Part shown: positions 31,489-33,428 of the stretch, in pieces | How the letters are laid out: every line of letters begins with the position of its first letter | Position numbering within the stretch: position 1 is the stretch's first letter | Origin: an uncultured Ignavibacteriales bacterium | GTDB lineage: Bacteria; Zixibacteria; MSB-5A5; GN15; FEB-12 | NCBI GenBank assembly: GCA_964518635.1 | Contig: CAZFGK010000016.1 | Coordinates: 2,943 to 66,942, forward strand | DNA: 64,000 nt | Direction of reading: 5' to 3' | The notes under the pieces: model-generated | The model's database searches: none | Told to the model about the DNA's origin: nothing | What the model saw: the letters and a program-made list of their open reading frames with translations, nothing else | Made by a program: the position numbers and the translations under genes

Positions 31489-32325
31489 TTGAAGCCAAAA
31501 ATACTTCGGGATGAATATCCAAGCATTCGAAAGGCATTTGAGAGTTTAGGCGAGGTTCGAGGGCAGGTCTGGAAGGCACTTGAATCCAAATCAAGTGACG
31601 ATCCTAGACTCTTCGTTTACTTCCAAGCAGAGTTTCTTCGAGTTAACGACTTCTGCAAGGCCATACAGATGCTTTCAGACGATCTGAGGAGTGAACCGGC
31701 ATCGGTTTTGTGTAGATCTTTGCTTGAAGTAGTTTGGCACATGAACTTCATACTCACCAGTCAAAACCCTACTGCTGTGTGTCTATCTCTCAATGTCAAA
31801 TCAATAAAGGAACTACTAAAGCAACACGACTCTAAGTCATTCAAGTCTGGCGTCGGAAAACCGTTGAGTGATGATCCTGAAGAATTGAGAAGTCTTTTGG
31901 GCGAATTGAAAAGTGAATTGAGAGATATAGAGGAGCCTGGGAGTGACCAAGACATCGGTTCAATTTCTGTTGAAAGAATTTGTCAAATATTGGATGAACG
32001 TATGTCTGCTAATGCTGGTGAAAAGACTACGAGGACTCAGCAAGAGTATGATCGCCATTATCGAAACTGGTCTCAGCCCACTCATGGTTTGATTTTGGGA
32101 GTCAGAAATTATTTCAAGAAGGATGGAAGTTTCTACGATCCCAGAAGTGAAGAGGCGATCTCCAGGTCGTTATTTACGGCCCTGGCGACCTTAGAATTCT
32201 CTCTCAGGTTTATGGGCTTGGGCAATGATTACTTCAAGCTGGGACAAGAAGAACTCATCCGAAGTGAGTTTCAGAACTATTCTGTGCTGCTGGGGGAGTT
32301 TGAACAGAGATTCAATTGGTCCTAA
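31489..32325 (+). CDS. Hypothetical protein, DUF5677-like
   Basis: 278-aa ORF with A.VLCRSLLE and Y..HYRNWSQPTHG motifs resembling DUF5677/HEPN-like helical proteins; AT-richer than the flanks; TTG start. Confidence 0.5.
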   Translation: MKPKILRDEYPSIRKAFESLGEVRGQVWKALESKSSDDPRLFVYFQAEFLRVNDFCKAIQMLSDDLRSEPASVLCRSLLEVVWHMNFILTSQNPTAVCLSLNVKSIKELLKQHDSKSFKSGVGKPLSDDPEELRSLLGELKSELRDIEEPGSDQDIGSISVERICQILDERMSANAGEKTTRTQQEYDRHYRNWSQPTHGLILGVRNYFKKDGSFYDPRSEEAISRSLFTALATLEFSLRFMGLGNDYFKLGQEELIRSEFQNYSVLLGEFEQRFNWS

Positions 32326-32359
32326 GATTCGCACTCGTAGGGACTCTAGCCCCCCCACA

Positions 32360-32394
32360 AACAGAAACCGGGTCCTCTTGCGAGAACCCGGTCG
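32360..32394 (-). terminator. Intrinsic terminator of the minus-strand small transcript
   Basis: Reverse complement: accgggttctc-gcaa-gaggacccggt followed by ttctgttt. Confidence 0.7.
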
Positions 32395-32446
32395 GTGATT
32401 CTGTGTGGATTTATCCAGGGTGAACTGGAGGGATCCAGATCGACCG

Positions 32447-32485
32447 CTAGATAGCAGTCACCTCACGTAAGTCGCGTTTCATCAT
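32447..32485 (-). CDS. Putative 12-aa micropeptide MMKRDLREVTAI
   Basis: ATG ATG AAA CGC GAC TTA CGT GAG GTG ACT GCT ATC TAG, downstream of a very strong SD (13-nt spacing, rather long). Confidence 0.35.
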   Translation of the reverse strand: MMKRDLREVTAI

Positions 32486-32519
32486 ATAAACTGGACCACC
32501 TCCTTTCGAGTGTACCGTA

Positions 32520-32547
32520 ATTATATTGAGTTGAATAATTTTGCCAA
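32520..32547 (-). promoter_or_regulatory. Sigma70-like promoter of the small transcript
   Basis: Reverse complement: TTGGCA-16-TATAAT with an AT-rich spacer. Confidence 0.65.
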
Positions 32548-32747
32548 GCAAAAAAATAGGGGGATCAGAGGCTTCATCCGGAAGCCCCCCATTTTGTATA
32601 ACCCTTGGACAGTTACGCAAGCCCAGCCAACGGACAGGGAGATTCTCGTCCCCGTCCCGTGACTGTTCTTGTTTACTGACGATGGCTGAACACCTATACT
32701 TTTTTGGTTAATGAATCACTCACCCAGATTTGATTGGAACTGAACAG

Positions 32748-33428
32748 ATGGCTCTCTCGATTTCAGAATTTGCTCACTCACTTTCCAGTGCCGGCGGCGC
32801 AGCTCTGACCCTCGGTATTCTTCTTCTTGCCTGCGCTCAAGGGGATATTTCGGCCACCGACGGCCCTCGCCCAGCCAGACCAGCCGTCGCCTATGGCGAC
32901 ACTTCAAAAGCGGCAGCCGACTATGTCATGCCGATGCGTAACGCCAAAAACAAGATCGTCACTCTCGAAACCAGTTTCGGCAACATGACCATCGAACTCT
33001 TTCATGACCTCGCCCCGAATCATGCTGATTCATTTTATGCCCGCGTGCTCGACGGATTCTACTCGAAACAGATTTTTCACCGCATCATCCCGGGTTTCAT
33101 GATGCAGGGGGGAGACCCGAAGGGGACCGGTCAGGGGGGCGCGAACTACACCCTGAAAGCTGAATTCTCGAAAGAGCCGCATGTCGCGGGAACTCTCTCC
33201 ATGGCTCGCACAAATGATCCGAATTCTGCCTCGACGCAGTTTTTTGTCTGCTTCAACGATGCCCCGCATCTCAATGAGCAGTACACGGTGTTTGGACATC
33301 TGCTGAAAGGGTACGACGTTCTCTACAAGATCGAAAAGTATGCAGGGTCGCCGAATGTCAAGACCGATCCGCCGAAGCTGATCAATTCGTTTGTATCCGA
33401 TGCAAGCGGAAAGCCGAAGAAGGGTTGA
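32748..33428 (+). CDS. Cyclophilin-type peptidyl-prolyl isomerase, probably a lipoprotein
   Basis: FHRIIPGFMMQGGDP.GTG.GG, LSMART.DPNSASTQFF, HLN.QYTVFG; LLAC lipobox. Confidence 0.93.
   Translation: MALSISEFAHSLSSAGGAALTLGILLLACAQGDISATDGPRPARPAVAYGDTSKAAADYVMPMRNAKNKIVTLETSFGNMTIELFHDLAPNHADSFYARVLDGFYSKQIFHRIIPGFMMQGGDPKGTGQGGANYTLKAEFSKEPHVAGTLSMARTNDPNSASTQFFVCFNDAPHLNEQYTVFGHLLKGYDVLYKIEKYAGSPNVKTDPPKLINSFVSDASGKPKKG

What the first reader, a model, noticed from the sequence alone, without database searches (positions are those of the whole stretch)
32360..32547. Stand-alone small transcript carrying a 17-nt antisense to the 16S rRNA 3' tail, a 12-codon ORF and an internal 16S-tail mimic
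Seen on the minus strand: promoter TTGGCA-16-TATAAT (32547-32520); within about 10 nt of the likely start, GAAAGGAGGTGGTCCAG (32507-32491); ORF MMKRDLREVTAI* (32485-32447), which contains a second SD-like GAGGTGA; a hairpin over the stop codon; CTGGATCCCTCC (32438-32427); and a terminator (32394-32360). Established: the conserved 16S 3' end is ...GGCUGGAUCACCUCCUUUC, so the 17-mer could pair along its whole length with one G-U pair. That reaches beyond the anti-SD into the helix-45 strand, far longer than an ordinary SD. The downstream CTGGATCCCTCC resembles the 16S tail and could sequester the 17-mer. Two TCCAG and two CTGGA blocks allow mutually exclusive folds. Inference: an unannotated ribosome-binding or titrating sRNA, or a switch-controlled micropeptide or type-I-toxin-like mRNA. 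Standard ORF callers would miss it.
Basis: partly seen in the sequence, partly recalled or inferred. Interest (0 to 1): 0.82.

Follow-up and report, generated by a model that had tools for sequence, protein, structure and literature searches.

The report
Ribosome-docking small mRNA, Ms_IGR-5 family
This is a real, stand-alone ~155-base transcript whose start can pair with the whole free tail of the ribosome's 16S RNA and which carries a 12-codon reading frame; it belongs to a small-RNA family already listed in Rfam and resembles the 'rre' small mRNAs of alpha-proteobacteria, whose role is still unknown.

Summary
The 17-mer is the longest complement to this genome's own 16S tail outside the rDNA.

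It is not new. The element gives a full-length but sub-threshold match to Rfam RF02471, Ms_IGR-5 (37.8 bits against a cut-off of 45). In 27 of 151 genomes of the same phylum (Zixibacteria) a homologue scores above the cut-off. The same idea was published in 2016 as rreB/rreR: a stand-alone small mRNA with 17 nt complementary to the 16S 3' end, bound to 30S and weakly translated (PMC5711450).

- The family spans at least eight phylum-level groups.
- In 151 of 156 copies the frame has a start codon just after the extended SD and a stop exactly 9 nt after an invariant GAGGUG. Shifted frames give 0 of 156.
- Conservation is at nucleotide level, not amino-acid level.
- The "second SD" is one strand of a covarying long-range helix.

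The CTGGATCCCTCC "16S mimic" is not conserved. No RNA data were available, and the function remains unknown.

The parts
32550..32556 (-). Run of seven T directly upstream of the -35 hexamer (UP-element-like)
   Evidence: Sequence read. A T-run of at least 4 sits at the same offset in 30 of 31 Zixibacteria copies.
32520..32547 (-). Sigma-70-type promoter TTGGCA-16-TATAAT
   Evidence: Matches 11 of 12 consensus positions. TTG at the same offset in 28 of 31 copies, with a TATTA-like -10 conserved in position.
32358..32513 (-). Predicted transcript of about 155 nt. The start at A32513 (ACAC) and the end in the T-rich tail are both inferred.
   Evidence: A32513 lies 7 nt after the -10 hexamer. The Rfam RF02471 alignment spans 32513-32361 full length and model R1 spans 32513-32359. 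No RNA reads were available.
32491..32507 (-). Extended Shine-Dalgarno GAAAGGAGGTGGTCCAG, complementary to the single-stranded 3' tail of the genome's own 16S rRNA with one G.U
   Evidence: The predicted duplex with the tail is -34.5 kcal/mol, against -8.7 for GGAGG alone. GAAAGGAGGTGGTC is invariant in 30 of 30 aligned copies.
32447..32485 (-). 12-codon reading frame MMKRDLREVTAI, ending in stop TAG
   Evidence: An equivalent frame is present in 151 of 156 family sites: a start 0-9 nt after GGTC and a stop exactly 9 nt after GAGGTG. Shifted frames give 0 of 156.
32455..32462 (-). 5' strand of long-range helix P1 (GGTGACTG). It overlaps the invariant GAGGTG at 32464-32459.
   Evidence: RNAalifold on 30 copies. 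Across 89 aligned matches, all 4 pairs of the RCUG/CAG part show changes on both sides.
32394..32403 (-). 3' strand of helix P1 (CAGAATCACC), directly 5' of the terminator
   Evidence: With P1 enforced, the window RNA folds at -57.2 kcal/mol, 5.5 above the MFE.
32412..32454 (-). Stop-codon hairpin: TATCTAG (32453-32447) pairs with CTGGATA (32418-32412). It encloses a small hairpin, CTGGA-TCCC-TCCAG (32438-32425).
   Evidence: P1-enforced fold. The equivalent helix covaries: 5 of 5 and 2 of 2 pairs show changes on both sides. The inner block CTGGATCCCTCC is unique to this copy.
32401..32412 (-). Conserved junction AAATCCACACAG (AAATCCCAACAG in most relatives)
   Evidence: Nearly invariant. It is complementary to a G-rich stretch inside the hairpin: median 8 nt, and 25 of 30 copies beat the shuffles. 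In the window the complement is only 5 nt, reached by 42 of 300 shuffles.
32356..32393 (-). Intrinsic terminator: a 12-bp stem at 32393-32366 followed by a T-rich tail
   Evidence: The stem covaries: all 10 pairs of helices 7-8 show changes on both sides.

Best explanation
The element is a diverged member of the small-RNA family that Rfam lists as Ms_IGR-5 (RF02471). It is of the same kind as the rreB/rreR small mRNAs of alpha-proteobacteria.

It is a stand-alone transcript of about 155 nt, made from its own strong promoter. After a 6-nt leader comes a 14-17-nt stretch that can pair with the entire free 3' tail of 16S rRNA, so the RNA can dock firmly on 30S subunits. This docking is inferred here and shown experimentally only for rreB.

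A short frame follows (12 codons here, 10-18 in the family). Its start and stop positions are conserved, but its amino acids are not. What is selected is therefore most likely the passage of a ribosome, not the peptide.

The last five codons and the stop lie inside a structured 3' domain. The invariant GAGGUG plus RCUG pairs with CAG..CACC next to the terminator (helix P1), and the stop codon sits in a hairpin. A translating ribosome must open this domain.

The same middle strand can alternatively pair with the 3' half of the extended SD, so the RNA is probably bistable. The inferred mechanism is that 30S binding and translation switch the fold and control the RNA's own turnover. The downstream physiological output is unknown.
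For: Family membership:
- RF02471 aligns full length to 32513-32361 at 37.8 bits, E = 5e-7.
- blastn of the element hits 18 of 60 relatives at E <= 2.2e-4, over the stretch from the transcript start to the stop codon.
- RF02471 matches 51 of 151 genomes of the phylum at E <= 0.01. In 27 of 151 the match is above the gathering cut-off; the best is 70.6 bits.
- A gathering-threshold scan of 18 loci drawn from the pattern matches gives RF02471 in 10 of 18. These include 6 of 6 actinobacterial loci and one record titled Zixibacteria.

Translation is selected:
- 151 of 156 sites have an in-frame ATG, GTG or TTG 0-9 nt after GGTC and a stop exactly 9 nt after GAGGTG. Both shifted frames give 0 of 156.
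- Start and stop codons interchange among the copies: ATG/GTG/TTG and TAG/TGA/TAA.

Conservation is of nucleotides, not of the peptide:
- GAG GTG is invariant.
- Asp is GAC in 18 of 18 cases.
- The codon before GAG is NGT, giving Cys, Arg or Ser.
- In Actinobacteria the pattern is NGG ACN.
- Peptides differ between phyla.

Structure:
- 90.9% of cells form pairs, against 29-49% when partners are slid.
- 26 of 28 pairs show changes on both sides.
- The covariation score is 0.346 against 0.107 in shuffles, reached by 0 of 500 shuffles.
- The alternative SD-masking pairing is compatible in 90.5% of cells.

Docking and independence:
- The predicted duplex with the own 16S tail is -34.5 kcal/mol.
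- The promoter is conserved in position, and synteny is shared by only 1 of 30 relatives.

Experiments on the analogue rreB (PMC5711450, Results and Discussion read):
- It co-sediments with 30S subunits.
- The 5' extension of the SD is needed for ribosome association.
- Translation is weak.
- Changing the start codon to a stop raises the RNA half-life from 10 to 37 min.
Against: - The window copy is below Rfam's curated cut-off (37.8 against 45 bits).
- No transcript evidence exists for this organism.
- Alignment A2 was fitted to my own model's structure, which favours that structure. The sequences are also related, so the shuffle control overstates support.
- The pattern-scan set was selected for GTGAGGTG, so the invariance of that motif in that set is by construction. 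It is independently invariant only in the 30 Zixibacteria copies.
- The SD-masking alternative cannot be tested by covariation because the SD side never varies, and one slid control also pairs well (98.8% of 171 cells).
- rreB/rreR differ in start-codon position and reading frame. Carrying their biochemistry over to this element is inference.
- Thr in Actinobacteria uses ACG, ACA and ACT about equally, which would also fit some selection on the peptide.
- In the window, the junction-to-loop complementarity is not better than chance.
Confidence: 0.78

Rival explanations
1. A purely non-coding RNA that pairs with the 16S tail to titrate or park 30S subunits, or to help 16S 3'-end handling. On this reading the short frame is incidental.
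For: The 14-nt complement to the tail is invariant. The predicted duplex is very stable, -34.5 kcal/mol. rreB is bound to 30S and only weakly translated.
Against: Start and stop codons are maintained at fixed positions in 151 of 156 copies with interchanging codon types, against 0 of 156 in other frames. In Bradyrhizobium, 20-fold overexpression of the ribosome-binding form did not affect growth, and the authors judged ribosomes far more numerous than the RNA.
Confidence: 0.08
2. An ordinary gene for a micropeptide (12 residues here) that is itself the effector. The extended SD would only set the expression level.
For: The frame is conserved. Within phyla the peptides look alike (MKxDxCEV.. 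in Zixibacteria, MxxxRTREVA.. in Actinobacteria). Thr in Actinobacteria uses three synonymous codons.
Against: Wobble positions are as conserved as the others: GAG/GTG are invariant, GAC is 18 of 18, GCT is the only Ala codon. Conserved nucleotides span amino-acid changes (NGT gives Cys/Arg/Ser; NGG gives Arg/Trp/Gly). Codons 9-11 and the stop vary in step with their RNA pairing partners. Peptide length and sequence differ between phyla. Synthetic RreB and RreR were unstructured, and overproduction had no phenotype.
Confidence: 0.08
3. A trans-acting base-pairing sRNA whose seed is the conserved junction AAAUCC(C/A)A(A/C)CAG. Translation of the short frame would unmask the seed (a dual-function RNA).
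For: The junction is nearly invariant. It is complementary to an internal G-rich stretch that could mask it: median 8 nt, with 25 of 30 copies above shuffles. A terminator with a U tail follows, as in many sRNAs.
Against: No target was sought or found. In the window the masking complementarity is only 5 nt. The pairing could equally be a pseudoknot with a purely structural role.
Confidence: 0.05
4. A type-I toxin mRNA, or the leader peptide of a transcription attenuator that controls a downstream gene.
For: A short frame followed by hairpins and a terminator resembles an attenuator.
Against: The peptide is hydrophilic and only 12 residues. Nothing lies downstream on the same strand: the next gene is convergent, on the + strand at 31489-32325. 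Neighbours are not conserved (1 of 30).
Confidence: 0.01

Closest known systems
Rfam RF02471, Ms_IGR-5 (Actinobacteria sRNA, first reported in Mycobacterium smegmatis)
   Same: Full-length alignment at E = 5e-7. Shared features are the ACAC start, GGAAGGAGGUGGUC, GUGAGGUG.CUG, a stop codon in a hairpin, the AAUCC..CAG junction, CACC and the terminator. Zixibacteria relatives of the window copy score up to 70.6 bits against a cut-off of 45.
   Different: The window copy scores 37.8 bits, so a gathering-threshold scan misses it. The family is labelled actinobacterial and non-coding, and its consensus structure pairs the SD region with GCUGCC. My covariation analysis supports GGUGRCUG pairing with CAG..CACC. 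Of the three papers that name the family, I read passages in one, which only lists it. The other two were seen only in the search listing.
rreB / rreR small mRNAs of alpha-proteobacteria (Hahn et al. 2016, RNA Biol, PMC5711450)
   Same: A stand-alone transcript of about 165 nt with its own promoter and terminator, 16-17 nt complementary to the 16S 3' end, a short frame directly downstream, a structured remainder, and context not conserved across orders.
   Different: In rreB/rreR the last base of the complementary stretch is the first base of a GUG start. Here the ATG lies 5 nt beyond the end of the 17-mer. Their frames are 14 and 18 codons with unrelated peptides. [quoted passage not shown] The supplements of that paper could not be seen.
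Rfam RF01867, CC2171 (Caulobacter sRNA; Northern-validated in Methylorubrum, preprint 10.1101/2022.01.24.477521)
   Same: A weak full-length match (23.2 bits, E = 0.008) and the same 5' motif, ACA..GAAAGGAGGUG(A/G)UCC. All 14 alpha-proteobacterial loci fetched carry a short frame after it.
   Different: The match is far below the cut-off of 75 bits. In those 14 loci the start lies 2 nt after G(A/G)TC, the frames are 17-31 codons and all begin Met-Ser. None of the 14 has the in-frame GAG GTG + 3 codons + stop layout.

Membership tests
Rfam RF02471 (Ms_IGR-5) | Covariance-model score at or above the curated gathering cut-off (45 bits) | tested here: not met
   The window copy scores 37.8 bits, E = 5e-7, aligned over model positions 1-184. 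It is absent from the gathering scan.
Rfam RF02471 (Ms_IGR-5) | Homology to sequences that do pass the cut-off (membership by a chain of relatives) | tested here: met
   blastn links the window copy to 18 of 60 relatives at E <= 2.2e-4. The same loci in relatives score 45-70.6 bits with RF02471, in 27 of 151 genomes. One alignment holds the window copy and 29 relatives at 66% mean column identity.
Rfam RF02471 (Ms_IGR-5) | Shared architecture: 5' extended SD, GUGAGGUG, stop-codon hairpin, AAUCC junction, CACC, terminator | tested here: met
   The alignment to the model consensus, the family alignment and the pair counts.
rre-type small mRNA (Hahn et al. 2016) | At least 16 nt complementary to the 3' end of the organism's own 16S rRNA | tested here: met
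   17 nt with one G.U (16 Watson-Crick pairs) against the tail found on contig C62.
rre-type small mRNA (Hahn et al. 2016) | A short reading frame directly downstream on a stand-alone transcript | tested here: met
   A 12-codon frame with a predicted promoter and terminator. The transcript itself could not be observed.
rre-type small mRNA (Hahn et al. 2016) | The start codon (GUG) overlaps the last base of the complementary stretch | tested here: not met
   The ATG starts at 32485, 5 nt after the 17-mer ends at 32491. In relatives the start lies 0-9 nt after GGTC.
rre-type small mRNA (Hahn et al. 2016) | Physical association with 30S subunits, and start-codon-dependent turnover | not testable with these tools
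   Shown only for rreB in Bradyrhizobium.
Rfam RF01867 (CC2171) | Score at or above 75 bits, and the Met-Ser frame that starts 2 nt after GATC | tested here: not met
   23.2 bits. The frame layout differs from all 14 alpha-proteobacterial loci.
Type-I toxin mRNA | A hydrophobic, membrane-active peptide and an antisense RNA partner | tested here: not met
   The peptide MMKRDLREVTAI is charged and 12 residues long. The only promoter-like site the scan found on the opposite strand lies at 32672-32700, upstream of the element and pointing away from it.

The most novel reading that the evidence does not exclude
Ms_IGR-5, the copies found here in other phyla, and the alpha-proteobacterial rre genes may together be one ancient device, found in many bacterial phyla, that reports the state of the translation machinery.

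A free 30S subunit would be captured through its entire 16S tail. The ribosome would then translate about 12 codons. The anti-SD would pass from the 5' super-SD to the in-frame GAGGUG, which sits at initiation-like spacing (9 nt) before a stop codon. That stop is UAG in about 90% of copies, and UAG is read only by RF1. This transit would flip a bistable 3' domain and expose or hide the conserved AAAUCC junction.

In this way the cell would measure the availability of free 30S subunits or of RF1, and would couple it to RNA decay or to regulation of targets.
Probability: 0.1. Interest if true: 0.8.

Novelty: new member of a known kind. Interest (0 to 1): 0.4.

Why it matters
For this window, the result is an annotation. 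It adds an unannotated small gene that standard Rfam thresholds and ORF callers miss, and it assigns that gene to a known family.

More broadly, an RNA labelled "actinobacterial sRNA" turns out to be a translated, ribosome-docking small mRNA. It is found in Actinomycetota, Acidobacteriota, Zixibacteria, Gemmatimonadota, Rokubacteria, Planctomycetota, Nitrospiria and Leptospirales. It shares its design with the rre genes of alpha-proteobacteria.

Its function has been open since 2008-2016. The fixed layout found here gives concrete mutants to test in cultivable carriers such as Mycobacterium smegmatis or Streptomyces. That layout is the super-SD, a short frame, GAGGUG 9 nt before the stop, helix P1 and the stop-codon hairpin.

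Tried and rejected
- **Rfam at gathering thresholds:** nothing in the 64-kb window. Only the permissive scan of 651 bases revealed the family.
- **RNA evidence:** no RNA holder listed. Three runs of one study hold 0.22-0.28 of the sampled words as contigs. Read laying was not used, because contigs cannot show a transcript.
- **Own 16S:** the rRNA model found only the 5' part, at a contig end. The 3' end was found by motif on contig C62.
- **Synteny:** tblastn of seven window neighbours against 30 relatives' loci hit only L057. Context therefore gives no functional clue.
- **L124 (Rhodobacteraceae) and a second site in L178:** both matched motifs by chance. Neither has the stop at +9; L124 also lacks an in-frame start, and in L178 the only in-frame start lies far downstream of the SD. 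L124's genome carries a separate CC2171-like locus, L190.
- **Simple -10/-35 regex:** it found only 12 of 31 and 9 of 31 promoters. Column counts anchored at ACAC were used instead.
- **Literature.** Searches for Ms_IGR-5, CC2171, rreB and the title of the 2016 paper found no work on function. None links rre genes to Ms_IGR-5 or to other phyla. The only papers found citing the 2016 work come from studies of the trpL leader of Sinorhizobium. PMC5521070 mentions neither family. Supplements of all papers were closed; those of PMC5711450 (extended alignments) might list further taxa.
- **Rejected readings:** a type-I toxin, an attenuator leader, and a chance strong SD (see the rival explanations).
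Full report
**1. The observation**

- a run of seven T (32556-32550);
- the promoter TTGGCA-16-TATAAT (32547-32520), matching 11 of 12 consensus positions;
- a likely start at A32513 (ACAC), 7 nt after the -10 hexamer;
- GAAAGGAGGTGGTCCAG (32507-32491);
- the frame ATG ATG AAA CGC GAC TTA CGT GAG GTG ACT GCT ATC TAG (32485-32447);
- CTGGATCCCTCC (32438-32427);
- a 12-bp terminator stem (32393-32366) with a T-rich tail.

The 161-nt RNA folds at -62.7 kcal/mol, z = -4.0.

The assembly's 16S gene is broken. The 5' part sits at the end of contig C9 and the 3' end is on contig C62. The 3' end reads ...GGCTGGATCACCTCCTTTCTAAGG. The 17-mer therefore pairs with the organism's own tail with one G.U, as claimed.

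Of about 4,022 GGAGG sites in the genome, this site has the longest contiguous complement to the tail. The run is 19 nt counting three wobbles, with 16 Watson-Crick pairs. The next best is 16 nt with 12 Watson-Crick pairs, and the rDNA itself gives 25. The organism does use SD sequences. An SD-like 4-mer precedes 31% of 1,247 long frames, against 8.5% at a control offset. This used a naive start call.

**2. What it is**

A gathering-threshold Rfam scan of the window is blank. A permissive scan of 32150-32800 gives a full-length match to RF02471, Ms_IGR-5 ("Actinobacteria sRNA"), at 37.8 bits (cut-off 45) and E = 5e-7. It also gives a weak full-length match to RF01867, CC2171 (Caulobacter sRNA), at 23.2 bits and E = 0.008.

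Relatives confirm the family:
- blastn of the element against 60 relatives finds 18 genomes at E <= 2.2e-4. The matches cover the stretch from the transcript start to the stop codon.
- RF02471 searched over 151 genomes of the phylum matches 51 at E <= 0.01. In 27 the match is above the curated cut-off, up to 70.6 bits. It matches none of 14 control genomes.
- There is one copy in the window's own genome.

Most are Actinomycetota. Others are Acidobacteriota (Terriglobia, Blastocatellia, Bryobacterales, Polarisedimenticolia), Rokubacteria, Planctomycetota, Gemmatimonadota, Nitrospiria and Leptospirales. At Rfam's own threshold, RF02471 recognises 10 of 18 such loci tested. These are 6 of 6 actinobacterial loci plus one each from Gemmatimonadota, Zixibacteria, Polarisedimenticolia and Blastocatellia.

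**3. The literature**

Hahn et al. 2016 (PMC5711450; abstract, Results and Discussion read) described rreB in Bradyrhizobium. It is a 165-nt stand-alone mRNA with 17 nt complementary to the 16S 3' end and a 14-codon frame. Their findings:
- The RNA co-sediments with 30S subunits.
- The 5' extension of the SD is needed for this association.
- Translation is weak.
- Replacing the start codon with a stop raises the half-life from 10 to 37 min.
- Overexpression has no effect on growth.
- They found analogues (rreR and others) only in four alpha-proteobacterial orders, and called the function elusive.

CC2171 was confirmed by Northern blot in Methylorubrum, again without a function (preprint 10.1101/2022.01.24.477521, passages read). 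Ms_IGR-5 is named in three papers. The one whose passages I read only lists it. The other two were seen only in the search listing. My searches found no paper that links rre genes to Ms_IGR-5 or to other phyla.

I fetched 14 alpha-proteobacterial CC2171-type loci. They share the leader and the extended SD. Their start codon lies 2 nt after G(A/G)TC, their frames are 17-31 codons and all begin Met-Ser. None of the 14 has the layout described in the next section. They are the same kind of element but a different subfamily.

**4. Anatomy of the family**

*The reading frame.* I collected 166 distinct GGAGGTGGTC sites from all loci. Ten lack a nearby GAGGTG and lie inside ordinary genes. Of the other 156, 151 have a stop exactly 9 nt after GAGGTG and an in-frame ATG, GTG or TTG 0-9 nt after GGTC. 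Frames shifted by 1 or 2 give 0 of 156.

The five failures are:
- three Zixibacteria copies that have the stop but whose only in-frame candidate start is an ATT 2 nt after GGTC. I read this ATT from the sequences printed; no script checked its frame;
- two chance sites (L124, and a second site in L178).

The pattern-scan set was selected for GTGAGGTG, so that motif's presence there is by construction. The start and stop positions are not.

*Nucleotides rather than amino acids.* Peptides differ by phylum. Zixibacteria have MKxDxCEV(A/T)(A/D)T. Actinobacteria have MxxxRTREVA(A/V)(R/S). Acidobacteria have 17-18 residues ending RPGEVAET. Codon statistics show conservation at nucleotide level:
- GAG GTG is invariant.
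- GAC is used in 18 of 18 cases.
- GCT is the only Ala codon.
- NGT before GAG gives Cys, Arg or Ser.
- NGG ACN in Actinobacteria gives Arg, Trp or Gly followed by Thr.

I conclude that the passage of a ribosome is what is selected, not the peptide.

*Structure.* RNAalifold on 30 Zixibacteria copies predicts three elements:
- a long-range helix (P1) between GGU.RCUG, which covers the Glu-Val-x codons, and CAG..ACC directly 5' of the terminator;
- a hairpin whose 5' strand holds the last codons and the stop;
- the terminator.

A covariance model built from this structure aligned 89 matches from 95 sources. On that alignment:
- 90.9% of cells pair, against 29-49% when partners are slid by 1-3 columns;
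- 26 of 28 pairs show changes on both sides;
- the covariation score is 0.346 against 0.107 in shuffles, reached by 0 of 500 shuffles.

The alignment was fitted to the structure and the sequences are related, so these figures lean towards the structure. Even so, by eye in the sequences printed, the strand varies between phyla while staying complementary. Examples are GGUGGUCA/UGACCACC, GGUGACCACC/GGUGGUCACC and GGUGGUG/CACCACC.

*An alternative pairing.* Rfam's own consensus instead pairs the SD's GGUGGU with GCUGCC. That pairing is also compatible in 90.5% of cells. It cannot covary, because the SD never changes, and one slid control pairs equally well. The middle strand may therefore toggle between masking the SD and forming P1.

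*The junction.* The junction AAAUCCCAACAG is nearly invariant. It is complementary to GUUGGGGU inside the hairpin: the median run is 8 nt, and in 25 of 30 copies at most 15 of 300 shuffles reach it. In the window the run is only 5 nt, reached by 42 of 300 shuffles.

**5. The window copy**

Its minimum-energy fold masks the SD with CTGGATCCCTCC. That block is absent from most relatives. The family fold with P1 enforced costs 5.5 kcal/mol more, at -57.2. The predicted duplex with the 16S tail is -34.5 kcal/mol against -8.7 for GGAGG alone, so 30S binding should win.

The unit appears independent. The promoter is conserved in position: a T-run in 30 of 31 copies, TTG in 28 of 31, and a TATTA -10. 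Neighbours are shared by only 1 of 30 relatives. The next gene downstream is convergent.

**6. Mechanism**

*Shown here:*
- the complementarity to the 16S tail;
- the conserved frame boundaries;
- the covarying 3' domain;
- the independence of the unit.

*Shown elsewhere, for the analogue only:*
- 30S binding;
- weak translation;
- start-codon-dependent decay.

*Inferred:*
- The 5' GAAAGGA serves as a toehold for the 16S tail.
- Docking opens any SD masking.
- A ribosome that reads the roughly 12 codons must unwind P1 and the stop-codon hairpin.
- When the stop is in the A site, GAGGUG sits 6 nt before the P-site codon, a spacing like that at initiation. The anti-SD could therefore re-pair there.
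- The resulting refolding sets the RNA's fate.

The physiological output is unknown.

**7. Verdict**

The element is a new, sub-threshold member of a known family and a known kind.

No RNA data were available.

Noticed in passing
window 32550-32590 (minus strand): Just upstream of the element's -35 hexamer lies GGGGGGCTTCCGGATGAAGCCTCTGATCCCCC followed by TATTTTTTT. It looks like a hairpin plus T-run (a terminator or insulator) and overlaps the UP-like T-run. No minus-strand gene lies upstream; the neighbouring cyclophilin-like gene is on the + strand.
   Followed up: no
L024, L038, L039 (Zixibacteria relatives G030, G025, G012): Three copies keep the stop 9 nt after GAGGTG but have no in-frame ATG, GTG or TTG. 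In each, I read an in-frame ATT 2 nt after GGTC from the printed sequences, which suggests an AUU start codon. No script checked the frame.
   Followed up: partly
family-wide: The base that faces U of the 16S GAUC is G (a G.U wobble) in all 30 aligned Zixibacteria copies, although A would give a Watson-Crick pair. The cross-phylum loci were selected for this G by the search pattern, so they do not add evidence. In the alpha-proteobacterial CC2171 type, 11 of 14 copies have A. Unexplained.
   Followed up: partly
family-wide: The stop codon is TAG in 26 of 28 distinct Zixibacteria frames and in 71 of 80 distinct frames of the pattern-scan set, which is mostly high-GC Actinobacteria. From recall, TGA is the usual stop there. 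TAG lies in the stop-codon hairpin, so the preference may be structural or may relate to RF1.
   Followed up: no
Rfam RF02471 consensus structure versus alignment A2: The curated Rfam structure lacks the long-range helix GGUGRCUG/CAG..CACC that covaries across phyla. It also labels the family as a non-coding actinobacterial sRNA, although the family carries a conserved short frame and occurs in several other phyla.
   Followed up: yes
G000 contigs C9:1-803 and C62:~150-200: The genome's 16S rRNA gene is split by the assembly. The 5' part lies at the end of contig C9 and the 3' end lies on the short contig C62.
   Followed up: partly
window 31489-32325 (+ strand): A 278-residue frame of unknown function converges on the element's terminator. 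It found no counterpart in the 30 relatives' loci.
   Followed up: no
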